This document shows, in pieces, positions 45,479 through 57,600 of a DNA stretch of 58,585 nucleotides. The notes beneath the pieces were generated by a model. The model saw only the letters and a program-made list of their open reading frames with translations. It had not been told where the DNA came from and did no database searches. Both the position numbers and the translations under genes were made by a program. Positions within the stretch are counted from its first letter, which is position 1. Each line of letters starts with the position of its first letter. Source of the stretch: an uncultured Clostridia bacterium (GTDB taxonomy: Bacteria; Bacillota; Clostridia; Christensenellales; UBA1242); NCBI GenBank assembly GCA_944372445.1, contig CALVZE010000004.1, forward strand, positions 1 to 58,585, given 5' to 3'.

Positions 45479-45559
45479 AACGGAGTAATTATAGCACACA
45501 AATTGTTAAAAAGTAAAGCAAAAACATAATTGGTTTAATTATAAAACATAATTATAAAC

Positions 45560-45995
45560 TCATCCACAACTTTTCACTTTTCGTTCTTCACTTTTTTGTC
45601 ATCCACAATTTTTATTTTTTATTTCTTATTTACACTAAGTCCTGTCATCCTAACAAGAGGCTTATATTTGTCATCCTGAGCGAAGTCGAAGGATCTAAAA
45701 AGATACGCTGTATATAAAATCATCCACAACTTTTATTTTTTCTTTTTTATTTCTTATTTCCGCTAGGTTTTGTCATCCCGATCCGCGTCGCAAACTGCAC
45801 TTCATTTCGCGTTTCGGCATGAATGCCAAACCGCTTACCATTCGTTTGTTTGCTCCTCTTCCCCAAAAGTGAAAGTCACTTTCGGGGACCCCACATAGGA
45901 TATAAGAAAATACAGCTTGGTTTTGGAGATTCTTCGACGGCAGTCGCTTCGCTTTACTCCGAGTAGCGATTAGGAAAATTTATTTTTCATGCCCG
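45560..45995. repeat. Cluster B: composite of REP-like units, short direct repeats and a GC-rich hairpin repeat
   Basis: TCATCCACAA x3 (45560, 45599, 45720). REP unit 45669-45708. CCCCAAAAGTGA/TCACTTTCGGGG hairpin 45861-45887. GAGATTCTTCGACGGC (45926-45941) is the exact reverse complement of 25160-25175. TTCGTTTGTTTGCTC is shared with 24925-24939. Confidence 0.78.
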
Positions 45996-46023
45996 CGTTA
46001 AGCGTAGTTAGTGTCTGTCCCAG

Positions 46024-46356: not shown

Positions 46357-46515
46357 TACACCTCCTTGTAACAATCTAAATTTTTTAAACATATAAATTA
46401 GCATACCACCTTTAATTATTTTGCCTTACATATGAAGAGGAAGTCAAATGAACAAAACTTTAAATTTTGCAATATTTGACTTATTAGAGAAAGTTTTGTT
46501 GAAAAGGAGGAAAAT

Positions 46516-46701
46516 ATGTCACAAGAATTTTTATGGGTGTTTTTGCTGTCGGTTTTGGCATCAAATAATGACACCAACCTTGCCACTAACACAAATATCT
46601 TACTTTTGCTCTTACTTGGACTAAGCGGAAACAATTGGAACAACGGCTGGAACAACAACTTAGGCGGATGCTGTTGTGGCAACACTAGACAATTTATTTA
46701 A
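46516..46701 (+). CDS. Small Asn/Gly/Cys-rich hydrophobic protein (possible spore-associated peptide)
   Basis: Strong RBS AAGGAGG, 61 aa, followed by a terminator. Sequence contains ILLLLLLGLSGNNWNNGWNNNLGGCCCG. Confidence 0.65.
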   Translation: MSQEFLWVFLLSVLASNNDTNLATNTNILLLLLLGLSGNNWNNGWNNNLGGCCCGNTRQFI

Positions 46702-46711
46702 CCCTCCTTTT

Positions 46712-46736
46712 AAAATAGGCGTTTGCCTATTTTTTA
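46712..46736 (+). terminator. Intrinsic terminator after the small protein
   Basis: AAAATAGGC-GTTT-GCCTATTTTTT. Confidence 0.7.
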
Positions 46737-46738
46737 TT

Positions 46739-46853
46739 TGTCATCCTGAGCCACGAACGAAGTGAGTGTGTCGAAGGATCTAAGAGAGTGCAGTTTGAGT
46801 TACAAACATCAGACATCCAAGCATTGCTTGGTCGAAGGTTCTAAAAAATATGC
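46739..46853. repeat. Cluster C of REP-like repeats (2 units)
   Basis: TGTCATCCTGAGC-CACGAACGAAGTGAGTGT-GTCGAAGGATCT (46739-46781) and degenerate GACATCCAAGCATTGCTTGGTCGAAGGTTCTAAAAAATATGC (46812-46853). Confidence 0.75.
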
Positions 46854-46946
46854 GAATAAATTTAACCAAAAAACCTTTTTAATATATTCATTAAAAATTA
46901 GATAAAAAATAATTTAAAAAAAATTTAAAAAAATTATTAAAATCGT

Positions 46947-46975
46947 TTGCCAAATATTTTTTTATGTGTTATTAT
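46947..46975 (+). promoter_or_regulatory. Putative sigma-A promoter of the pilin-like gene
   Basis: TTGCCA-17 nt-TATTAT with an extended -10 (TGnTATTAT). Confidence 0.5.
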
Positions 46976-47047
46976 ATGCATGTAATCAAATTAAAGAATA
47001 AAAATTCTTGTTTTGATAATGATAATAATTAATGGGAGGAAAAAATT

Positions 47048-47443
47048 ATGACATGGTCTGAAATTGCAGCTAAATTACAAGGTGGCGGAAAATGGCTACC
47101 TAAATTATTAACTTCGATTGAATGGATTTTGTGGGTAGCACTCATCTTGGTTGGTGCTTGTGGTGCGATTTACGCTATTTATGTTGGCGTTAAGATGGCA
47201 AGAGCAGACAGCTCTGAACAAAGAGAGGAAGCAAAGAAAAGATTGATTAATATCATTGTGTCAATCGTTGTAACTATCGCCTTAATTCTATTCTTTAACC
47301 TTATTCTTCCATTGATTTTAAATAGTTTAGGCGTATTTGAAAGCTATCAAGGTGGTGGCGAAATCCCTGACGGAGACGGTGGAACTGGCGGTTCATCACT
47401 AAACGCAATCATTAACACAGCAAGAGTTTTAATTGGTAGATAA
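47048..47443 (+). CDS. TrbC/VirB2-like (Mbov_0395-type) pilin
   Basis: Two long hydrophobic helices linked by KMARADSSEQREEAKKRL, a typical T4SS-pilin architecture. RBS GGGAGG. Gly/Asp-rich C-terminal linker. Confidence 0.7.
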   Translation: MTWSEIAAKLQGGGKWLPKLLTSIEWILWVALILVGACGAIYAIYVGVKMARADSSEQREEAKKRLINIIVSIVVTIALILFFNLILPLILNSLGVFESYQGGGEIPDGDGGTGGSSLNAIINTARVLIGR

Positions 47444-47456
47444 TTTTAACAAAATA

Positions 47457-47487
47457 AAAAAACGAGTTGAAATTCAACTCGTTTTTT
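47457..47487 (+). terminator. Intrinsic terminator of the pilin-like gene
   Basis: AAAAAACGAGTTGA-AAT-TCAACTCGTTTTTT perfect 14-bp stem. Confidence 0.8.
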
Positions 47488-47492
47488 TGTGT

Positions 47493-47888
47493 AAGTAAGA
47501 GTGAAGGGGAGCCATCGGCTCCCAGTGAAGGAAAACCTACAGTTTTCAGTGAAGAACGGTGGAAAGATTTTAAGAGATTAAAAAATTGTATGATTAAAAA
47601 CTCACACATACATATATGATTATTTGTTTGTATTAAAAAAAGTTTAAGGGCGGACACAGGAAATAAATTTTGGAACAAAATTTATTTGTTGGACTTGCTC
47701 TTTTTTCTTTTTGTCTCAGTGTGTTGTTTTGCAAGTCCAACAGCGCGTTTATAACGCGCCCTGCGTCCGCTCCTTTTCTAACGAATTTCTATAAAATATT
47801 AAAGTGTTTTAGTGTTGAATTAAAACTATTCTAAAACTTTCCACAACTCTTCACTGAAAACCGCAGGCTTCACTCTTCACTCTTACTT
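47493..47888. other. About 400-nt multi-stem structured element (candidate ncRNA or foldback MITE)
   Basis: Nested inverted repeats read directly from the sequence: 47493-47506/47875-47888, 47524-47530/47868-47874, 47536-47555/47848-47867 and 47648-47660/47760-47772. The last encloses three hairpins, and there is a side hairpin at 47507-47523. Confidence 0.75.
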
Positions 47889-47910
47889 CTTTTCGCTTTT
47901 CACTCTTCCT

Positions 47911-48993
47911 TTAAAGGTTTTCTAACATCTCCTCTCTTTCTTTTAAAATCATTGCTTCGATAAATTCATCAATATTTCCATTCAAAACGCCTTGCAAGTC
48001 ATAAGAAGAAAGGTTTGTCCTATGGTCGGTCACTCTGCCTTGCGGATAGTTATAGGTTCTAATTCTTTCGTTTCGATTTCCACGCCCTACCTGACTTTTC
48101 CTGTTTTCGTCATATTCACTATCACGCTGTTCACGATAGAAGTCATAGAGTTTGCTTCTTAAAATGTTCATTGCCTTTTCTTTGTTTTTAAGTTGGCTAC
48201 GCTCATCTTGGCAAGTCACCACAATGCCCGTTGGAAGATGTGTAATTCTAATTGCTGACTCTGTTTTGTTGACATGTTGACCGCCAGCACCACCACTGCG
48301 GTATGTATCGATTTTAAGGTCGCTGTCGAGAATTTCAAAGTCAATATCTTCAATCTCAGGAAGTACAGCAACGGTGGCAGTTGAAGTGTGAATGCGTCCC
48401 TGACTTTCGGTGTCTGGCACGCGCTGAACACGATGCACACCACTTTCGTATTTAAGTTTCGAATATGCGCCCCTGCCTTTGAAAAGCACTGTGCACTCCT
48501 TAATTCCACCAAGTTCCGTTTCGTTTATATCTAAAATCTCCGTTTTCCAACGATTTTTATCGGCATAGTGAGTATACATTCTAAGAAGCTCCAAACCAAA
48601 CAACGCACTTTCTTCGCCACCCGCCGCGGAGCGAATTTCGAGAATAGCGTTACTCTCATCGTTTTCATCCTTTGGAAGAAGTAAGATTTTCATCTCTTCC
48701 ACTTTCTTTTCAATCTGCTCTTTTAGTGAATATATTTCGCTCTCATATAACTTTTTCATCTCCGCATCACTTTCGGTCTTAACATCCTCTTCGCATTTGT
48801 CTAAGTTATTTGAGAGCGATAAAAGTTCTTGGTAGGCATTTGCAATATCCTCCAAAGAATTTCTCTCTTTAACCAACTTTTTCCACGCCCTGTTGTCCGC
48901 AATAACCTCTGGCTTCATAACCTCTTCGGTCAGTTCGTCATAGCGTTCTTTTGACTTTTTCGTTTTTTCAAGTATTTCTTTATAGTTTTCCAT
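47911..48993 (-). CDS. prfA: Peptide chain release factor 1
   Basis: GGQ motif (SGGAGGQHVNKT), PxT recognition loop (RVPDTE), RIRTYNYPQGRVTDHR. Start 48993 overlaps the prmC stop. Confidence 0.96.
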   Translation of the reverse strand: MENYKEILEKTKKSKERYDELTEEVMKPEVIADNRAWKKLVKERNSLEDIANAYQELLSLSNNLDKCEEDVKTESDAEMKKLYESEIYSLKEQIEKKVEEMKILLLPKDENDESNAILEIRSAAGGEESALFGLELLRMYTHYADKNRWKTEILDINETELGGIKECTVLFKGRGAYSKLKYESGVHRVQRVPDTESQGRIHTSTATVAVLPEIEDIDFEILDSDLKIDTYRSGGAGGQHVNKTESAIRITHLPTGIVVTCQDERSQLKNKEKAMNILRSKLYDFYREQRDSEYDENRKSQVGRGNRNERIRTYNYPQGRVTDHRTNLSSYDLQGVLNGNIDEFIEAMILKEREEMLENL

Positions 48994-50662
48994 AAACCAC
49001 CCTGTCAATTTTATTATAGTCTTTCACGACTTTAATCTCTTTAAAACCACATTCCTTCATAATCTTCTTAACTGCACTTGCCTGACCTTTGCCAATCTCA
49101 TAAAAAAGCATGCCATTCTTTTTAAGATGCTTGACGCTTCCGACGGTTATTTCGCGATAAAAATTTAGCCCGTCCTCTCCACCGTCAAGCGCAAGTTTTG
49201 GGTCGCAAGTTTTGACATTAATATCAAGCTTATTTAGGTCCTTTGTTGGAATATATGGCGGATTTGACACTATTATATCAAATTTTTTTCTTTTTTTCAA
49301 GTTTTCAAAGAGGTTGCTTTCAATAAATTCCACTTTGACATTGTGCTTTTTCGCGTTTTCCATGGCAACTTGAAGCGCCTGTTTTGAAATATCAAGCGCC
49401 GTAACACTTGCATCACCAAACTTTGCAAGCGTTACCGCTATCGTCCCACTGCCCGTTCCAACATCAAGTATCTTGTTTTTTCTTTTGAGGTTTTTAAGCA
49501 CCTCGCCCACCAAAATTTCCGTTTCCATGCGTGGCGTCAACACCTTTTTGTTGACATCAAAGCGAAGTCCGTAAAACTCAGTGTAACCAAAGATATTATC
49601 CACACTTTCGCCGTTTGCACGCCTTTGGACAGCCCGCATGATGTCGCGATATTCCTTGTCGGTCACACTTTCAACCAATTTTACCTCTGCTCTGTTTTTG
49701 CCTAAAACAGTGGCGATTATCCACTCAATGTCACTCGTGTCCACCGACTGCAACTTGTTTCGCACCTCTGCATACACCACCGAAAAAGGTCTTTTCTCAT
49801 CGTTTTCCATAATTTTTCTATCCTTTTGTGAAGTTAAAAAACTTATCTCTGTTTGTGCGGTAAGCACGGTTTCCACATGCGTAAGCGAAGGTCTCATTGT
49901 CACAAAAAAGGAAGTGACGAAACACAACGATTTTAAATAGTTCCACCCGCTTAAATCAATTAGATAAAGAATTTCATAGCAAAGCATAATAGAAAGAAGC
50001 AGAACCGCTAAATTAATTAAAAAATTAAAGAAAAAGTTATAACTTGCACCTATCAATGTTACCACAAAAATATCTAAAAAGAAAACAAAAACAAGGTAGT
50101 TTAAAAAATTTAATGGTTCGCAAAGCCCTGATTTATACTTCCCTCTCGCTCCCTCGCCGTAAATAGACACAAGGTCGCATGCCCTGTTAAAGCGAAAAAA
50201 CTCTCGAACCACCGAAAAACTTTTAAGCATGGTTAAGATAATTGCAAGAAGTATCAATCGGAAAAAGGCGATGATAAAGTTCCTCAAAAGTGTGCTTCCG
50301 CCTGCTCCAACAATAAAGTAACCAAATTTACCCGGAAGATAGCCAATAACAACCCCCGCAAAGACAATGCCGATAAGTCCGCTTAGTATAGACAAGATGA
50401 CAAGGTAATCTTTTTTCTTTTTTTTCACACTCACTCTTTCCGACCAAAAGAGCGAATGAAAAAGCAAAAGCAATCCAAAGATAAAAAACTGTAAGCCTCG
50501 CGCAAAAGGAAAGTGCCAATAAATTAGCTTGTTTTTGTTTCTATTGCTCCAAAGTTTGCGTGTGCCTCCTGTGTCTATACTTGACAACGCTTCATAACCA
50601 TTTTTCGCACAAACAGCACCATTTGAAGTCGGAAAAAACATCATTTTTTCTTTCTTTTTCAT
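48980..50662 (-). CDS. prmC: Release factor glutamine methyltransferase PrmC fused to an N-terminal DUF1385-like membrane domain
   Basis: C-terminal half: VLTPRMETEIL, DVGTGSG, VSNPPY, ALDGGEDGL, YEIG. The N-terminal ~280 aa has several TM helices and FPFARGL. Confidence 0.9.
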   Translation of the reverse strand: MKKKEKMMFFPTSNGAVCAKNGYEALSSIDTGGTRKLWSNRNKNKLIYWHFPFARGLQFFIFGLLLLFHSLFWSERVSVKKKKKDYLVILSILSGLIGIVFAGVVIGYLPGKFGYFIVGAGGSTLLRNFIIAFFRLILLAIILTMLKSFSVVREFFRFNRACDLVSIYGEGARGKYKSGLCEPLNFLNYLVFVFFLDIFVVTLIGASYNFFFNFLINLAVLLLSIMLCYEILYLIDLSGWNYLKSLCFVTSFFVTMRPSLTHVETVLTAQTEISFLTSQKDRKIMENDEKRPFSVVYAEVRNKLQSVDTSDIEWIIATVLGKNRAEVKLVESVTDKEYRDIMRAVQRRANGESVDNIFGYTEFYGLRFDVNKKVLTPRMETEILVGEVLKNLKRKNKILDVGTGSGTIAVTLAKFGDASVTALDISKQALQVAMENAKKHNVKVEFIESNLFENLKKRKKFDIIVSNPPYIPTKDLNKLDINVKTCDPKLALDGGEDGLNFYREITVGSVKHLKKNGMLFYEIGKGQASAVKKIMKECGFKEIKVVKDYNKIDRVVYGKL

Positions 50663-50757: not shown

Positions 50758-51327
50758 CTATTTTTTCGGATTTTTCTCAATAAATGTAAAATGTATGTTT
50801 TTTATCTTCGCTTTATAAATCTTGTTTTCTTCAATGTCGCCACGGTAAAAGATTTTTGCTGTTCGCTCCTCTCCTGTTTCCTTGTCTAGATAAGTTATAT
50901 CATAAAAATTGTAACCTAAAATATTTAAAAGCGGATTAATATAATAAAGCGAGTTGTTTATATAGACAATGCCGATAAAGATAAGTATTACAAAGATGAC
51001 ACAAAAGACACTGACCTTTTCAAATTCTAACGGTATGGCAAAAAAGACAAAAAGAGAAAAATAACCTAAAAAATGCTCGTCGGTTATATTTTCTTTCTTC
51101 AACACCACAATCTCTTTTGTCTCCTCATGGTTGAGCCAAACATTAAAGATAAGTCCAAAGACACCACTTGATATTAAAAGAATTAATAAAATGAAGTTTA
51201 TGGTGTTGAGAGCATTAAAAGTGAGATTGCCATTCATAATCTCGACAATAAGTTTCAAAAGCACCAGAAAATACATCGGCACAAAAGCACTAATATATAA
51301 AAGCAAGTTTTTTAAAAATTTCACCAT
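50758..51327 (-). CDS. KwaA-like (Kiwa anti-phage sensor-like) four-TM membrane protein
   Basis: LLLYIS...ENITDEHFLGYFSLFV...IGIVYINNSLYYINPLLNILGYNFYDI resembles the KwaA pattern (EN...E.L.....Y and Y.NP.L...G..Y). 189 aa. Confidence 0.6.
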   Translation of the reverse strand: MVKFLKNLLLYISAFVPMYFLVLLKLIVEIMNGNLTFNALNTINFILLILLISSGVFGLIFNVWLNHEETKEIVVLKKENITDEHFLGYFSLFVFFAIPLEFEKVSVFCVIFVILIFIGIVYINNSLYYINPLLNILGYNFYDITYLDKETGEERTAKIFYRGDIEENKIYKAKIKNIHFTFIEKNPKK

Positions 51328-51629
51328 GCTTTTATTATGCCAAAAATTAAAAATTTAATTAAATTTTAATTAAATTATTAAAAATCAATAAAAATTACAC
51401 TATTTTTAATAAAAAATTAATTAAAAAATGGTTTTAAACTAATTTTTTGCATTACAAAATGGTATTTTTGGATTTTTTCGATATTTTATTATTAAAAAAT
51501 AGTTTATGATGAATTTTTATTTTTTCTTTATATGTATTAAATATTAATATATATTTATAATAAATTTAATCTATTTATTTTGAAATATTTTTAGAGTGTG
51601 CTAAAATTATCTTAATAAGAGAGGTGTTT

Positions 51630-54600
51630 ATGAAAACTTTAAAATCTTTTATGCTCACACTTGCTTCCGCTTTCATGCTTGTTTGTGGACTTGTTCTTTT
51701 TTTGCCACAAAAAGAAACAGTAACTGCTGAAACCAACCTTGTGGAAAGTGTTGAGAATAATGTGCAAGACTATGTCGGTATTGAAGCTAGTGGCGACGCT
51801 GTTTCACAAGAGTTAATTAAAGACGACATCTTTCTTTACAATGGAGATAACACTCTAAGCGTCTATCTTAAAACTAATGGCGACACGGTTAACCCTAACG
51901 GTGGACAAATCTATGACTATGTTTATTATCCTGACGAAGATAATCTCTCTATGTTTTACTTTTATCGAATAAATGGTGTCAATCTAAGCATCAACGGAGT
52001 GGAACAAAGTTTAGAGCAAGAAGAGACTTATAAATTCAACCCTCCTTCAAATCTCACTTTTGAAAATTTGCCTGATGTTATTCCAGAAAACTTTAATATA
52101 AATTTCGGAAACACCTCTGACACCAACACCTTTAAGATTACAGATGATAGTGGTAACTTAATTGAAGGCTTATACACCTTGCAAGTGGAAATAGATTTAT
52201 GGCAGGCACTTGACGGTAGAAGTGACCAACAAGAGTCTGTCTTTGACAACAAAACTGACGAAACCTTGACTTATTCTTTCTTTGTCTTAAAAGAAAATTC
52301 CTATATTGTAAACCAAAGACCTGTATTTACACAAAACAACTTTGACAGCACAACCACCATCTCTACAACAGTAAATCCAAACTATGGCAATTATCTTTAC
52401 AGTAACTATTCATACGCTGGAAATAAAATTGCAAGCCTTACATATGACCAAACAAAATATGATGTTGCAATCACAAAAGAACTAAACTCTACATATCAAT
52501 TTGCCACCCTTTCATATATCGCTGAAAATGACAATGGCGAAACAAGTGGCTATACCTTAGATGGCGACAATATCGTTCGCTATCAAAAAAATGGCTCGCG
52601 CACCACAATTTACTTTTATGATATCGGAAATTACTCAGTTTCCTTTGAAGCCGTTGCCACCTTCTCTACCGCTTCAAATGTCTATAACAAATATTCGCTT
52701 TCCGCTCTCGCCGATATAACCAAAGATATTATGGTGTATGTTTATGGCTATCAAGCAACTCACATCGACTATGACAACAATCGCAACTTTGTGGAATTTA
52801 AAACTTTCGAAAATTCTAGCGGTGCTTTTGACGGTTCTTATTATCATAGCGCAGACATCACGGCAGACTTCCTCGCCTCAGAACCTAGTTTTGGTCAAAA
52901 CACTTCAGGTTCTGACACAATAGGAAGTGAAACTTTTGTTTATACAAATGTTTTAAATTATCTCAACCAGCAAGATGAAGAAAACAATTATCTAATAACG
53001 CCTGAAACCACAAATCAAGCCCTTGTCCGCTTCAACTTAAATGCTACCGCCTTACTTAGTGGCAATGTTAGGTCCTATGTCTATTCCACCTCTGCGCTTC
53101 CTGGTTACCAATCTTTAGCAGGCTCAAAACTTCAAGGTCAAGAGCTATATTATACAACCTATAACGGTGGTTCCATAAGCGACGCCGGCACATATATCTT
53201 CATCCTCGCCTACACCTTTGACCAATTCTACACCACCAACGCACAGCGTGACGCCAACACAATTTTCTATCAAGTGTTCTTCTTTAAGATTGACACCAAT
53301 CCTCCTTCTGTTAATATTAAAAATGAAAGTGGAAAGACAATATATTCCGACACCTACACAAACGAAAGTGTGACTATTTCTAATCCTAATGCAAACAATG
53401 TCCATGACAAAGATGTCACCGTTCAAGTTTATGCTTATGACTATGTAAACAATCAATATTTATCTAAATATGGCGGAAGATATGGTGTTGACATGCGCTC
53501 TTTGAACAATAATTCTGACACCTTGACTCTTACGGAAAATGCTCACTACACCATTAGACTTTACTACACCAACGAAATAAACGACACTGACATTGATATC
53601 GTAAACAACAGAATAATCAAGCAGTTTTATTTCACTATCGATAAGATAGATATAGAAAATGTTTCGGCTAGAAATGTTTCGCTGATTTCTGGTTCTTCAA
53701 GATACAACATTCTTCGCGGTGTGGAAGGAATTTCCACTAACCAAGACATCATCGTGTCATGGTTAGACAAGGCAAGCTCGGCAGAAACCTTTGCTTATTA
53801 CAGATATTTTCCTATCGTTTCCGAAAACTTCTATCAAGAAGGACTGAACACTTCAAGAATCTTGCAAGAGTTTTTAAATGGGACTATGGGTATGTCATAT
53901 ATGCCTATCAACTACTCAATTGACCTATCAAGCGAAGGAAAGTGGACAAGATACGCAGGAAACACAAACGGACAAACCTCCACAACCACAAGCCAATATG
54001 TGCTTTCCGAAACAGGTATGTATGTCTTTGATGTCTATGATGAGGCTGGCAACCATTCCGTGCAAATCTTCATCATTGATGATACTTCACCTATGTTTGC
54101 TTTACAAACCGGAAGTGAGTTCTCTCTTATACCTTCCTATCACTACATATCTGAGGCGTCCACGCTCTATTGGGGAGATTATAAAACAATCGCTATCAAC
54201 GATGCCAATGGTGCTATTAATTTTAGAAACATTTCAGATATAAACCATGTGACAGAAGCAAATGCCAACTATGCTATATATAAAGATTACAACGGAAACA
54301 CATCTCTTGATATATATAAGGCGTTTTACAATATACTATATCGAAACAGCTACATTCAATACATCAACTGTTCTGCACTCTCCGCTCCAACAAACAGGGC
54401 ATATTTAACCTTTGAAATAGATGACCTTATCTATGAAACACCTATCGGGAGCAATAATTACCAACAGGCAACCAACAAAAATTCTATTAGCTTAAATGAC
54501 GATCGCGAATACACCTATCGCATTCTTATAAGAGATGAAAGCAACACAAGATATGATTACGCATCAAGCACTACATCACTTATACAATACACAAATTATT

Positions 54601-57600
54601 ATAGCGCAAGACAAAATATTATAGTCAGCCATGACACCTCAGAATTTAGACTGTTTTATGAAGAAACAACTAATCAAGGTGAAGAAAATGTTTATCTATC
54701 AAGCAACTTGATGATGGTAAGTGAAGATGGCGACACTCTAACAACTTACTTAAATCCTATCAATGTCAACAAACTTATATATGTTTCCTTTATTCCAACG
54801 GTCGCAGAAGAAACAACAGTGCAAATAGATAGTGTTAAAGTGGACTATTACGCCTATGTTGACAAAGAGGTTGAGGTTAATGATGTAACCTACTATTATA
54901 AAGAATTAAGTGATGAACGCACCTCAACAACCGAACTATACAACTACTCAGAAGGACAATCGACAGAAACCAACATTGAAGAGCTATTTATCAACAATAA
55001 AGGTGTTACAAATGAAGGAATGTATGTCATCACAAGAACCTACAACACCGATGTCACTCCTACATTAAACGAACAAGATTATCTCACAAGAAAGTATGTG
55101 TTATATGTTGATAGAAATGAAGTTATCTCCTCTCCTGTAACAAAGGGCGAAGGAAACTTATCACACTCTGAAAGCTTAGTCGGTGGAGAAATCTTTATCA
55201 GCATGTATGACAGCGGAGATAACACAAGCCTTGTAATAACTTTCCCAAACAGTCCTGACGGGAATTTAAACAGCACAACCCTTTATGATAGCAACGAAAA
55301 CTCCATACTTAGCACAAATAAGCTACCTTTAAGAGTGTATGTTCCAACTTACAAATACACAATGTATGCTCAAAAAGTGCCAAAGCAAGTTCCTGCGTTT
55401 GATGATGAAGGCAAGCCTATCATGGAAAACGGCGTGCAAACAACCAAACCTAGCGAAACAGAATACTATTATGAAGTGGTTTACAATTCTGACAACAAAA
55501 ATGCTTATTACAATTTAAATGCTTTGGAGAGCGACTTAGGCACAACAGATTTGATTACTGATGAAAAAGGCAATGTCTATATAGAAGAATACCTCATATT
55601 TGCCGAAATTTATAAAAATCCAACAGACGGTGTTAATATTCCGCTCTATCGCACCTCCAAAACCTTCAATGACCCAAATCCAGCAAATGCTGACAGCGAA
55701 AACGGCTTTTTAACTTTCTATGACAGTAACGGCAACCCTCTCACCGCCTTGACAGAAGAAGGAACATATCGAGTTGTTGTCTATCAAGGTTACAGAAGCG
55801 ACAGTTCGTTTAGACAACTTGCCACCTTTACCTTCAACATAGAAAACACCTCTCCAAATTTTGAAGCAAGAACGACACAAAGAGGTAGAGCGTTAAATTC
55901 TACAACTGAAAACGGAATGACCATATATCACACAAATCAAAACAACATACAACTTATTTGGAGCAAACCGCGTGACAGCTACACTGCTGAAATAGATACC
56001 GACAATTTCAAAGTGTCTGTAAATGGCGGAGCGACTGAAACAATGAATATGACAGAATTGTTCGTCAATAGTGGTCAATCACAAAATTCCTACTATGGCA
56101 ACCTGAATTTAAATAGGCTGGGAGTTTCAGAGCATGGCAATTATATTGATATAACAATGCAATACAAAAATCACAGCGATGAATATTATGATGTGATAAC
56201 CAAACGCATACTCCTAGACCGTGAAGCGCCTGACACAAACATAGACGGACTTGTGCATAAGGTTATAGACAATTTCTATATCGAAGATTTCTTGACTTAC
56301 GAAGATTTTAGAGTAAAAGAAAACATAAATGGCGACATAGTCACAAATAGCTACGAAACCTCGTATAACACTAGCAGTATTTCGGGAACATTTAGATATT
56401 ACTCATATGCAGTCGAAGGCTCATATCTTAGCACTTTAAAATCTACCTCAAAAACTGAAAGCTACAATATCTATTATAGAGAAGTAAAAGGCAAATACGG
56501 AGAAGAATATAATGAAACAACGCCTGAAACTTTCCTTGAAAGTAACTTTGATTTAATTTCAACCTTAAACTCTTTTACAAGCGACACTTACTATGAAATC
56601 GTAGAGAGCGACCTTGCTGGAAACTTAACCATCTACACCATTTTTGTCGTAGATTATAACACCGTAAGCGATGACTATGCTCTTATTGAATATAAGCAAA
56701 ACCAAACAACAGACTACACATTCAGCAAGTCAGATTATGTTTTAACCAAACAATCCTCTCATAATGCGCTTTTAAGCGTGTATGCAAAACCGGGATTAGA
56801 ATTAACTAACTTTAACTACTTTGGAAACGTTTGGATTAATTTCCGCGTTGACAAATATGTCAATGAAGTGCTTGTAACAAACTACTATCTCGCTTCTCCA
56901 TGGCTCGCAAAAGGCAAGGTATATCAAATTGTCGGAACAGCAAACAATTCACTATCGTTACAAGAAGTTGATATTGATGAATTAATTGATGGCAGTAAAG
57001 ATACAAGATTTAAAGACAGTATAACAGTCTATGACTCGACAAGAGGAACAACCGAAAGCTTCTACTTTAACACCAGAAACTCCGCCCTGTCTGCGTCTAT
57101 GTCAAACAATTCTGAAAGAGAATATATTTCCATATCGCAACCTTCTGACAGCGCTATTGAAAGCACGGTGACCGCACAGACCTATTTAACCTATATCAAA
57201 ATCTACACGCCGGCTATAACAGGCGTTGCCACCGAAGAAGTTTATTACGAAGCTTCCAACCAACTAGGTTATGCAAACGGATTTTTGAGTAATGAATTTG
57301 TCACGGTGACAACGAGTGGAAGTGCAATAACTTTTGAACTTATCGTGCGTAACCTCACTCGCGACACAAGGATTATCTATGAATTTACTGACAACTATGG
57401 AAATACTTACAGTGAAATACACCTTTATCAAGAAACTACCGGTTATCAAGAGGTAGATAGCAATAACATTCTCTACGCCTTCTACGATAAGAGAGATAAC
57501 AACTTGACATATCTAACAGAAGACGGCTTTGCTTATACCTACAATGAAAGAAAGTATAAAATTGAAATATATGAGGCAGCAAATAATGACGAACTTAATA

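What the first reader, a model, noticed from the sequence alone, without database searches (positions are those of the whole stretch)
47493..47888. ~400-nt element folding into a long nested stem topped by a near-perfect four-way junction
It fills the whole gap between the pilin terminator and the prfA stop. The pairings are read directly from the sequence. Outer stem: 14 bp (47493-47506/47875-47888), side hairpin GGGAGCC/GGCTCCC (47507-47523), 7 bp (47524-47530/47868-47874), 20 bp with 2 mismatches (47536-47555/47848-47867) and 8 bp (47559-47566/47837-47844). After AT-rich loops, a 13-bp stem (47648-47660/47760-47772) closes three abutting hairpins: 12 bp (47661-47687), 11 bp (47688-47741) and 7 bp (47743-47759). 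Only one unpaired base lies at this junction. Most mismatches are A-C on the plus strand, i.e. G-U/G-T wobbles on the minus strand, which suggests selection on the minus-strand RNA or ssDNA. The ends carry degenerate AGTGAAG heptamers. This is much more ordered than a terminator or a simple MITE, and I do not recognise it as any known RNA family. Candidates are a new ncRNA, a structured 3' extension of the prmC-prfA transcript, or a non-autonomous foldback element.
Basis: partly seen in the sequence, partly recalled or inferred. Interest (0 to 1): 0.78.

Follow-up and report, generated by a model that had tools for sequence, protein, structure and literature searches.

The report
Mosaic of structured intergenic hairpin repeats
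The 400-base hairpin between two genes of an uncultured chicken-gut Clostridium is real, but it is a pile-up of two undescribed kinds of structured repeat (arms of 7-base repeats, and a four-armed "cloverleaf" that here often sits where relatives have a plain transcription stop), not a single new RNA gene.

Summary
Window 47493-47888 folds as described, with z about -14 on both strands and no Rfam match.

It is not one unit.
- **Arms.** The two arms are inverted copies of a genome-wide repeat: AGTGAAG heptamers, small variable hairpins and a GTTGTGGAAAGATTTTA head. About 24 copies exist, and their tails face gene 3' ends in 19 of 23 cases.
- **Core.** The 126-nt core is one of six "closing stem plus three hairpins" elements in this 1.1-Mb genome (Candidatus Caccovivens sp.). 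The other five trail clpX, trpS, yebC, a GlmU-like gene and a methyltransferase on the sense strand. After clpX and trpS, most sampled relatives have plain terminators.
- **Conservation.** The trpS copy is kept in four species with compensatory changes. The yebC copy has a clean empty site in two relatives.
- **This gap.** Near-identical strains join the same arms to other cargo, and the same core to other flanks. The closest species have no core.

The most likely role is inferred, not shown. The whole block would be the 3' extension of the prmC-prfA transcript, ending at the bidirectional terminator 47456-47488. The junction would act as a 3' structure and the paired arms as double-stranded RNA. 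Expression could not be tested.

The parts
47456..47488 (.). Bidirectional intrinsic terminator (AAAAAAACGAGTTGAA-TTT-CAACTCGTTTTTTT). It ends the pilin gene and is the only terminator-like site downstream of prfA on the minus strand.
   Evidence: the only terminator-like site in 46900-48100. Similar hairpin-plus-T-run terminators follow the pilin gene in all alleles read.
47493..47566 (+). Left arm, a gene-trailing heptamer/hairpin array in pilin-sense orientation: AAGTAAGAGTGAAG | GGGAGCC-ATC-GGCTCCC | AGTGAAG | GAAAACC-TACA-GTTTTC | AGTGAAG | AACGGTGGAAAG (head).
   Evidence: The same arm with the same GAAAACCTAC-GGTTTTC hairpin occurs in alleles L059, L060, L062, L063 and L068.
47567..47647 (.). 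AT-rich spacer between the left arm and the junction element.
   Evidence: Conserved together with the core in L062. An assembly-graph breakpoint at 47605 in X11 and X25 lies inside it.
47648..47773 (-). Four-way junction element ('stem plus three hairpins'). P1 is GGGCGGACACAGG/CCTGCGTCCGCTCC. The hairpins are at 47661-47687 (AT stem), 47688-47741 (11 bp, 32-nt loop) and 47743-47759 (GCGCGTT-tat-AACGCGC). It is one of six such elements in the genome, and its sense strand is the minus strand (prfA sense).
   Evidence: z -10.2 minus, -8.9 plus. Family members. Allele L062 has a compensatory T-A to G-C change and a perfect P1.
47774..47836 (.). AT-rich spacer between the junction and the right arm. 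It is not conserved in allele L062.
47837..47909 (-). Right arm, a gene-trailing heptamer array in prfA-sense orientation. The head is CTTTCCACAAC on the + strand, followed by CTTCACT units and half of the left arm's hairpin sequence. It runs to one base before the prfA stop codon.
   Evidence: Orthologous but diverged prfA-side arrays are in L055, L057, L059, L068, L072, L076 and G030.
47911..49008 (-). prfA (peptide chain release factor 1). It has no terminator of its own before the element.
   Evidence: (NF001859, 493 bits).
47048..47443 (+). Stand-alone T4SS-type pilin-like gene, convergent with prfA and highly variable between strains.
   Evidence: PF18895; NF045849.

Best explanation
The 396-nt foldback is a mosaic, not a single gene or single transposon. 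Two families of structure-conserving intergenic repeats of Candidatus Caccovivens have accumulated in the gap between the convergent pilin and prfA genes.

(1) Each gene is trailed, in its own sense orientation, by an array of AGTGAAG heptamers interspersed with small hairpins and ending in a GTTGTGGAAAG head. Because the genes converge, the two arrays are inverted and pair into the long outer stem. The arms also share part of one hairpin sequence, so they are probably related by inverted duplication or conversion.

(2) Between the heads lies a 126-nt 'closing stem plus three hairpins' junction element in prfA-sense orientation. Five other copies, unrelated in sequence, trail housekeeping genes directly after the stop codon or after the terminator. 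After clpX and trpS, most sampled relatives have an ordinary intrinsic terminator at that position.

How it works (inferred, not shown): prfA has no terminator of its own, so the prmC-prfA transcript should run through the right arm, junction and left arm to the bidirectional terminator at 47456-47488. The junction would fold as it is transcribed into a very stable 3' structure that acts as a barrier to exonucleases or a processing signal. The paired arms would form about 50 bp of double-stranded RNA that RNase III, which the genome encodes, could cut.

The repeats themselves turn over quickly, by insertion, loss and replacement through an unknown mechanism.
For: SHOWN.
- The fold is real.
- Arm-like pieces recur on other contigs. 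There are 24 module heads, with tails facing gene 3' ends in 19 of 23 cases, p 0.0026.
- A second inverted pair lies between convergent genes at C8:12160-12536 with only AT filler between.
- The same array architecture with other linker words (CTCTTAAT, CTTCACG) trails prfA in other species.
- Components assort independently. L062 has the left arm and core with a different right side. X11 has the core and right side at depth 33 against the left side at depth 14, with a break at 47605. L059, L060, L063, L068 and G379 have the same arms with different cargo. L067 (prfA 98%) has neither arms nor core.
- There are six junction elements of identical architecture, with z -6.9 to -10.2 on the sense strand, always more negative than on the antisense strand.
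- They begin 0-35 nt after stop codons of clpX, trpS, yebC, a GlmU-like gene and a methyltransferase.
- Relatives have hairpin plus T-run terminators there in 22 of 29 cases after clpX and 6 of 9 after trpS.
- The trpS junction is conserved in 4 species: 96.6% of cells paired, and 6 pairs with double changes against 1 of 500 shuffles.
- Loops change about 4 times faster than stems, and 9 of 9 single-sided stem changes keep G.U on the sense strand.
- No terminator lies between the prfA stop and 47488.
- An RNase III signature (QRLEFLGDS) is present in a 210-aa ORF.

INFERRED: transcription through the element, and the stabiliser or RNase III roles.
Against: - There is no usable expression data. 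The RNA-labelled runs hold this organism at 2-4x and leave 47196-48157 uncovered. The only hint is one 151-nt contig running from clpX about 43 nt into its junction.
- The junctions fold almost as well on the antisense strand. The MFE difference is 1 kcal for the prfA copy and is reversed for the clpX copy. A DNA-level palindrome with no RNA role therefore fits nearly as well.
- No U-tract follows the junctions, so they are not canonical terminators.
- The prfA copy is confined to a strain cluster and absent from the sister species, which argues against an important function at this locus.
- Gene calls used for the orientation statistics are crude ORF calls.
Confidence: 0.6

Rival explanations
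1. Purely selfish or neutral DNA palindromes. On this reading both repeat families are REP/MITE-like DNA elements, or products of template-switch palindrome formation. They lodge in the safe DNA next to terminators, fold as single-stranded DNA during replication, and do nothing useful for the flanking genes. The foldback is just two of them stacked.
For: - The junctions fold on either strand with similar energy.
- The stems are near-perfect and abut with no junction loops, which is typical of DNA palindromes.
- There is presence/absence polymorphism with a clean empty site at yebC.
- Four unrelated fillings occupy the prfA gap among relatives with 97-98% identical prfA.
- Only three of six junctions are shared with the sister species.
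- A single compensatory change in a palindrome can arise by intrastrand templated correction without selection.
Against: - The copies share architecture but almost no sequence, unlike transposed copies.
- No target-site duplication was seen.
- Orientation follows gene direction: 19 of 23 arrays, and 6 of 6 junctions by z-score.
- 9 of 9 single-sided stem changes give G.U on the sense strand.
- The trpS junction has persisted through about 22% coding divergence with covariation.
- After clpX and trpS, junctions sit where most sampled relatives have terminators.
Confidence: 0.28
2. The arms are the gene-less remnant of a heptamer-armed 'IVS-type' cassette, that is, a PF05635 four-helix-bundle gene between inverted heptamer arrays, as in 23S rRNA intervening sequences. 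The core would have replaced the lost gene.
For: - (AGTGAAG)n is a cyclic permutation of (GAAGAGT)n, the arm word noted for such cassettes in other phyla (unchecked notes).
- The Coxiella 23S IVS is a 428-nt element excised by RNase III (PMC4990558).
- In G017 a TTCACTA/AGTGAAA heptamer hairpin lies just 5' of a PF05635 gene.
Against: - PF05635 is absent from this genome and present in only 2 of 61 genus genomes.
- In G017 the heptamer hairpin flanks the gene on one side only.
- Most arrays here are single rather than paired, and their orientation follows the neighbouring gene.
- The arrays carry interspersed hairpins and a conserved TCCACAAC head that the cassette notes do not mention.
Confidence: 0.1
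3. Independent small-RNA gene(s). Either the core is a stand-alone sRNA, or the conserved TATAAAAYYW-TCCACAAC heads are outward-facing promoters that make CU-rich antisense RNAs ending at the neighbouring genes' terminators.
For: - Module heads align to T-rich/AAAA followed 3 nt later by TCCACAAC, a -10-like word at a fixed distance.
- The left arm read on the minus strand would end at the bidirectional terminator.
- A run of seven Ts follows the core 6 nt after P1 on the minus strand, in both alleles.
Against: - No -35 signal appears, and only about half the heads have the essential last T of the -10 word.
- The consensus promoter scan finds nothing inside the element.
- The DNA upstream of the core on the minus strand is not conserved between alleles.
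- No homologue of the core exists in 300 family genomes or in public collections.
- There is no Rfam match.
Confidence: 0.07
4. A site active as single-stranded DNA, such as a single-strand origin, oriT or recombination site, connected with the adjacent T4SS-type pilin gene.
For: The element is a long imperfect palindrome with branched top next to a conjugation-type pilin gene. The G.T-compatible mismatches suggest a strand-specific fold.
Against: - Among the ORFs scanned in about 18 kb around the element (40.3-58.6 kb), none matched a relaxase, VirB4, coupling protein or integrase.
- The pilin-prfA adjacency is chromosomal and conserved across the genus without the element.
- The same junction architecture trails clpX, trpS and other genes that have nothing to do with transfer.
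- There is no match in plasmid or phage collections.
Confidence: 0.03

Closest known systems
REP / BIME / REPIN extragenic palindromes of Proteobacteria (with RAYT transposases)
   Same: Both are short, GC-rich palindromic units in extragenic DNA just after genes, often beside terminators. Both occur in mosaics and inverted doublets, vary in presence between close relatives, and are transcribed with the upstream gene. From general knowledge, REPs can protect mRNA 3' ends.
   Different: REP copies in one genome share sequence and a 5' GTAG tetranucleotide, and each is a single hairpin. Here the junction copies share only architecture (a stem plus exactly three hairpins). The host is a Clostridia lineage.
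BOX (boxA-boxB-boxC), RUP and SPRITE repeats of Streptococcus pneumoniae and bcr repeats of the Bacillus cereus group (general knowledge; the review PMC3184786 was listed but not read)
   Same: These are modular, foldback-forming intergenic repeats of Firmicutes that stack into composite structures of several hundred bases. They are often co-transcribed with neighbouring genes.
   Different: Those families are defined by conserved sequence modules and, for MITE-like members, by terminal inverted repeats with target duplications. The Caccovivens arrays are heptamer linkers plus hairpins of free sequence, and the junctions have no conserved sequence.
23S rRNA intervening sequences and heptamer-stemmed hairpins (Coxiella burnetii IVS, PMC4990558)
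   Same: A long stem encloses cargo of a few hundred bases, the stem RNA is a substrate for RNase III, and the size is similar (428 nt against 396 nt).
   Different: The element here is not in rRNA, has no S23p/PF05635 ORF (the family is absent from the genome), and its arms are interrupted by hairpins.
Intergenic heptanucleotide repeat arrays (GGGNATC of Xanthomonas and Nostoc, PMC4692102; TAACTGA of Beggiatoaceae, PMC4679880)
   Same: Both are tandem 7-nt units enriched in non-coding DNA and oriented relative to genes. In Xanthomonas they lie within about 50 bp of stop codons on the sense strand and are mostly transcribed.
   Different: Those are plain tandem arrays, G-quadruplex-forming or 5'-UTR-associated. 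They lack interspersed hairpins and a conserved head motif, and are not arranged as inverted pairs.
Intrinsic (Rho-independent) terminators
   Same: After clpX and trpS the position is the same as the terminators that most sampled relatives have there. Both are very stable GC-rich closing stems directly after the stop codon.
   Different: The junction elements are branched (three hairpins inside the stem) and have no U-tract.

Membership tests
Any Rfam RNA family | Covariance-model match at or near the gathering score | tested here: not met
   (E-value mode, 46500-48900) gave only chance hits at 21.7 and 28.6 bits, against gathering scores of 50 and 54. One search (whole window, gathering) gave no hits. 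(the five other junction loci) matched only the neighbouring 5S rRNA and, below its gathering score (32.5 against 58.7 bits), an L20-leader-like stretch. One search found no tRNA or tmRNA.
MITE (miniature inverted-repeat transposable element) | Terminal inverted repeats | tested here: met
   The arms at 47493-47566 and 47837-47888 are inverted repeats.
MITE (miniature inverted-repeat transposable element) | Multiple copies of the whole element that share sequence | tested here: not met
   The whole element is single-copy in the own genome and only arm pieces recur. The core has no other copy.
MITE (miniature inverted-repeat transposable element) | Target-site duplication flanking the insertion, with a clean empty site | tested here: not met
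   Alleles of the gap differ by wholesale replacement, not by precise insertion. The one clean filled/empty pair for a junction element (the yebC site) shows no duplication.
REP / REPIN | High-copy palindromes with conserved sequence and a 5' GTAG | tested here: not met
   The six junction copies share architecture but not sequence, and their flanks have no common tetranucleotide.
REP / REPIN | Cognate RAYT (Y1 HUH transposase, PF01797) in the genome | not tested
Heptamer-armed IVS-type cassette (PF05635 / 23S rRNA IVS protein) | Inverted arrays of a 7-nt unit forming the stem | tested here: met
   AGTGAAG/CTTCACT units are present in both arms.
Heptamer-armed IVS-type cassette (PF05635 / 23S rRNA IVS protein) | PF05635 four-helix-bundle ORF as cargo | tested here: not met
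   No ORF of that kind lies in 47567-47836. PF05635 is absent from the genome and present in 2 of 61 genus genomes.
Intrinsic terminator | GC-rich hairpin followed immediately by a U-tract | tested here: not met
   This is not met for the junction elements. It is met only by the separate hairpin at 47456-47488.
'Stem plus three hairpins' junction family of this genome (defined here) | GC-rich closing stem of at least 9 bp, exactly three abutting hairpins, at most 1 unpaired junction base, 108-126 nt, downstream of a gene in sense orientation | tested here: met
   The core at 47648-47773 passes the same scan as C2:11405, C3:72921, C3:75880, C33:2798 and C7:1697. The sense strand gives the better z-score in all six. 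One difference: the prfA copy lies 137 nt from the stop codon, behind a heptamer array, instead of 0-35 nt.
Integron attC site | RYYYAAC ... GTTRRRY core sites at the ends of the palindrome; cassette array with an integrase | tested here: not met
   The elements start GGGCG and end CGCCC. They follow scattered housekeeping genes.
Single-strand origin / oriT of a conjugative element | Location on a transferable element with relaxase or replication genes | tested here: not met
   The neighbourhood holds housekeeping genes and only an orphan pilin gene. There is no plasmid or phage match.

The most novel reading that the evidence does not exclude
The 'closing stem plus exactly three hairpins' elements are a functional, structure-selected RNA class of Candidatus Caccovivens, and perhaps of other uncultured gut Clostridia where earlier unchecked notes report similar shapes. 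On this reading they have taken over the role of intrinsic terminators or 3'-end caps behind housekeeping genes, are read by a dedicated junction-binding factor, and spread or regenerate by a mechanism that preserves shape but not sequence. The heptamer/hairpin arrays would be a second, co-operating class.
Probability: 0.2. Interest if true: 0.8.

Novelty: new variant of a known kind. Interest (0 to 1): 0.52.

Why it matters
If the junction elements work in RNA, a lineage of reduced-genome gut Clostridia has replaced ordinary terminators behind genes such as clpX and trpS with branched, U-tract-less structures. That would bear on how transcripts end and how they are protected in such organisms. 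It would also matter for automatic terminator and operon prediction in metagenome-assembled genomes.

If they are only selfish DNA, they are still an unusual case of repeats that keep a strict shape while their sequence is free. That asks for a mechanism of spread or regeneration other than cut-and-paste copying.

There is also a practical lesson. A striking 400-nt "RNA-like" fold in an intergenic gap can be a stack of independent repeats, and comparing alleles among close strains is what reveals this.

Tried and rejected
- **Rfam.** Searches of the element, the whole window and the five other junction loci found nothing.
- **tRNA or tmRNA.** ARAGORN found none.
- **Phage and plasmid collections.** BLAST of the interior found no match.
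- **Public collections.** Exact-anchor scans of metagenome and genome collections for the core found no match.
- **Covariance model.** A model of the core (R1) searched over 300 family genomes matched only the own copy.
- **DNA search in relatives.** Searches of 60 relatives and 150 family genomes found only arm pieces and low-complexity chance hits.
- **Outward-promoter idea for module heads.** The position matrix shows a -10-like A-rich word but no -35, and only half the copies have the critical T. I kept it as a minor rival.
- **PF05635 partner gene.** It is absent here and rare in the genus.
- **Expression.** The runs found are either DNA-like assemblies (X11, X24, X25) or RNA-labelled runs with 2-4x coverage of this organism and none over the element.
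- **G.U asymmetry as proof of minus-strand selection.** It rests on 5 events, one of them a private polymorphism, so it is too weak alone.
- **Shared 8-mer.** GCGGACAC occurs in both the core and the type-B cargo. I judged this to be chance, with roughly one such match expected.
- **Failed script.** A first intergenic folding scan timed out and was rerun in parallel.

Full report
**1.
RNAfold gives -147.0 kcal/mol for the + strand (z -13.9) and -158.2 kcal/mol for the - strand (z -14.2). None of 100 dinucleotide shuffles folds as well. The central 126 nt alone has z -10.2 (minus strand) and -8.9 (plus strand). The heptamers continue beyond the stated end, to 47909, one base short of the prfA stop codon at 47911-47913.

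**2. It is no catalogued RNA, and the core has no homologue elsewhere.**
- Rfam gives only chance hits far below gathering scores, and ARAGORN finds nothing.
- The interior has no match in phage or plasmid collections.
- Exact-anchor scans of the metagenome and genome collections find nothing.
- A covariance model built from the two available core alleles finds only the own copy in 300 genomes of the family.
- BLAST over 210 related genomes finds only pieces of the arms.

**3. The arms are copies of a genome-wide repeat.**
The host genome is 1.12 Mb in 37 contigs, with 35.7% GC. It holds about 24 modules built the same way. Read on the strand of the gene they follow, they are (AGTGAAG)n or an AT-degenerate version, interrupted by small hairpins of free sequence. 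They end in a conserved head, GTTGTGGA(A/T)(A/G)(A/G)TTTTATA. The heptamer tail faces the 3' end of a gene in 19 of 23 modules (p 0.0026). Where a canonical terminator is present, the array lies beyond it.

In convergent gaps two arrays therefore meet head to head. This happens here and at C8:12160-12536, where only AT-rich filler lies between the heads. Other species of the genus have the same architecture behind prfA with other linker words: CTCTTAAT in G030 and L070, and CTTCACG in L072 and L076. The long outer stem is thus the consequence of two gene-trailing arrays in inverted orientation. The two arms here also share part of one hairpin sequence (GAAAAC-YGYAGG). That suggests inverted duplication or conversion between them.

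**4. The parts assort independently among close strains.**
Record titles identify the organism as Candidatus Caccovivens. This is GTDB genus UBA11517, family UBA1242, order Christensenellales (PMC8035907). I fetched alleles of the gap through pilin homologues and prfA homologues.

| Allele | prfA or pilin identity | Content of the gap |
|---|---|---|
| Window | (reference) | arms + core |
| L062 | pilin 76% | same terminator, left arm, spacer and core (about 96% identical), but a completely different right spacer and a right arm of another subtype |
| L059, L060, L063, L068; G379 (its gap is identical to L068) | L068 prfA 97% | same arms around unrelated cargo |
| L094 | prfA 98% | a fourth cargo |
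| L067 | prfA 98% | about 150 nt of plain AT-rich DNA |
| L055, L057 | pilin 77-78% | only a degenerate prfA-side array (168-181 nt) |
| G013, G018, G019, G034, L073, L074 | more distant species | two facing terminators only |

L068 is Ca. C. faecavium. In run X11 the assembly graph splits at 47605, with depth 14 to the left and 33 to the right. Another strain therefore joins the same core and right side to a different left side. Within the window's own strain cluster the element is nearly invariant across five samples. The only change is 47541 A>G, which restores a G-C pair, while the pilin gene and prfA vary much more.

**5. The core belongs to a second family, defined by shape.**
A folding scan of all intergenic DNA and a closing-stem scan found five more elements of 108-117 nt with the same design:
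- a GC-rich closing stem of 9-12 bp that usually starts GGGCG;
- exactly three abutting hairpins (two short GC hairpins and one with an AAAATTTT-type stem and a 30-40-nt loop);
- one unpaired base at the junction.

They lie at C2:11405, C3:72921, C3:75880, C33:2798 and C7:1697. They begin 0-35 nt after the stop codons of a SAM methyltransferase, clpX, yebC, a GlmU-like gene and trpS, on the sense strand. Gene names are from reading the translations. They share almost no sequence with each other or with the core. Rfam does not know them. Their sense-strand z-scores are -6.9 to -10.2, and in all six elements the sense-strand z-score is more negative than the antisense one. The sense MFE is lower in five of six. 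The core matches the family order (GC hairpin first, AT-stem hairpin last) when read on the minus strand, which is prfA sense.

**6. How the junction family evolves.**
- At the orthologous positions, relatives have ordinary hairpin plus T-run terminators: 22 of 29 after clpX and 6 of 9 after trpS.
- The sister species G379 is 90% identical in DNA around clpX. It keeps the clpX junction (about 93% identical by my count of the alignment), the GlmU-like junction (97%) and the trpS junction (82%).
- G379 lacks the yebC junction, as does G408. In both, the terminator runs straight into the conserved rny promoter block, with no target duplication. G379 also lacks the prfA core and any match to the methyltransferase junction.
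- G412 and G414 also have a trpS junction, with a different closing stem (GGGCGGGCACAAG/CTTGTGCCCGC). In the four-species alignment 96.6% of cells pair. Six pairs changed on both sides; 1 of 500 shuffles reaches this, and slid controls reach at most 1 pair.
- Over four orthologous pairs, loops changed at 31 of 125 positions against roughly 22 of 344 stem positions. All nine single-sided stem changes keep a G.U pair on the sense strand.

The shape is therefore maintained, with a mild bias toward the transcribed strand, while individual copies come and go.

**7. Transcription context.**
The only terminator-like site between prfA and the pilin gene is the bidirectional hairpin at 47456-47488. A prmC-prfA transcript should therefore include the whole element. 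The genome encodes RNase III, with the signature QRLEFLGDS in a 210-aa ORF, and a Mini-III-like protein.

Direct evidence is lacking. The RNA-labelled chicken-gut runs hold this organism at 2-4x. One 151-nt contig runs from clpX about 43 nt into its junction, and nothing follows for 400 nt. Nothing covers 47196-48157.

**8. Explanation and rivals.**
- **Best supported.** The element is a mosaic of two repeat families (about 0.8 confidence for this identity claim). It is probably transcribed as the 3' extension of prfA. The junction would act as a stable 3' structure and the arms as double-stranded RNA (about 0.35 for the mechanism). Overall confidence is 0.6.
- **Main rival (0.28).** The same elements are inert DNA palindromes.
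- **Minor rivals.** These are a gene-less IVS-type cassette (0.1), independent small RNAs or outward promoters (0.07), and a single-stranded-DNA site tied to the pilin gene (0.03).

**9. Comparison with known systems.**
The lifestyle resembles REP/BIME/REPIN and the modular BOX repeats of pneumococci. The heptamer arrays recall the stop-codon-proximal heptamer repeats of Xanthomonas (PMC4692102) and the TAACTGA repeats of Beggiatoaceae (PMC4679880). The stem-plus-cargo layout recalls the RNase III-excised 23S IVS of Coxiella (PMC4990558). Membership fails for each on a defining feature: conserved sequence, target duplication, a PF05635 gene, or a U-tract.

Earlier notes of this scan describe (GAAGAGT)n-armed cassettes and several 'stem plus three hairpins after genes' families in other gut Clostridia. 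I used them as leads only. The PF05635 link was tested and not met here. I found the junction family independently, before reading those notes.

**10. Limits.**
- Gene calls for the statistics are simple ORF calls.
- The covariation test rests on four sequences.
- RAYT-type transposases and PF13366 nucleases were not searched.
- Rho was not found by motif, which proves nothing.
- All genomes are metagenome assemblies, in which repeats break contigs.

Noticed in passing
window 45540-46020: This is a 480-nt non-coding region packed with other dispersed repeats. It holds the AT-degenerate array TATATAAAATCATCCACAACTTTTATTTTTTCTTTTTTATTTCTTATTTCCGCTAGGTT (also on C2, C3, C9, C13, C15, C25 and C29) and GTCATCCTGAGC...GTCGAAGGATC units. 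It also holds a roughly 130-nt block (GCGACAAAATCGCCAAC...GCAAACGGCACTTCATTTC) that recurs at C12:26940-27230, in G030 (L008) and in G001.
   Followed up: partly
module heads, e.g. window 47837-47847, 45563-45570, 45723-45730: The conserved head TGTGGA(T/A)(G/A)A differs from the DnaA box TGTGGATAA by 1-2 bases and is followed by an AT-rich TTTTATATA. About 19 such near-boxes lie in intergenic DNA, against roughly 3 expected. True DnaA-box clusters, presumably oriC, are at C1:78900-79100.
   Followed up: no
window 47048-47443: The stand-alone T4SS-type pilin gene is hypervariable between strains (76-97% protein identity, with indels near the C-terminus), while the intergenic DNA just downstream can be about 96% identical. 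This looks like diversifying selection or a recombination mosaic.
   Followed up: partly
window 50758-51327 and 51624-58583: A KwaA-like (Kiwa anti-phage) membrane protein scores below the NCBIfam cut-off (62.9 against 100 bits). It sits next to a giant ORF of more than 2320 codons, with no Pfam match, that runs off the window.
   Followed up: no
window 48980-50662: PrmC is fused to a long N-terminal membrane region with weak DUF1385 similarity (560 aa in total). It overlaps the start of prfA by 29 nt.
   Followed up: no
G000 C13:62-220 (L154): The 3' part of 5S rRNA pairs with an inverted copy about 100 nt downstream. The pairing encloses the 5S terminator hairpin and two further perfect hairpins, giving a junction-like structure of -80 kcal/mol.
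   Followed up: no
L147 (G017:C5) 1860-1950: In one of only two genus genomes with a PF05635 (23S rRNA IVS protein) gene, a hairpin whose arms are TTCACTA/AGTGAAA heptamers lies immediately 5' of that gene.
   Followed up: partly
L223, L224 (G412, G414), yebC-rny gap: At the site where the window's genome has a junction element and G379 and G408 are empty, G412 and G414 carry a different 135-nt AT-rich filler with weak folding (-19 to -26 kcal/mol).
   Followed up: no
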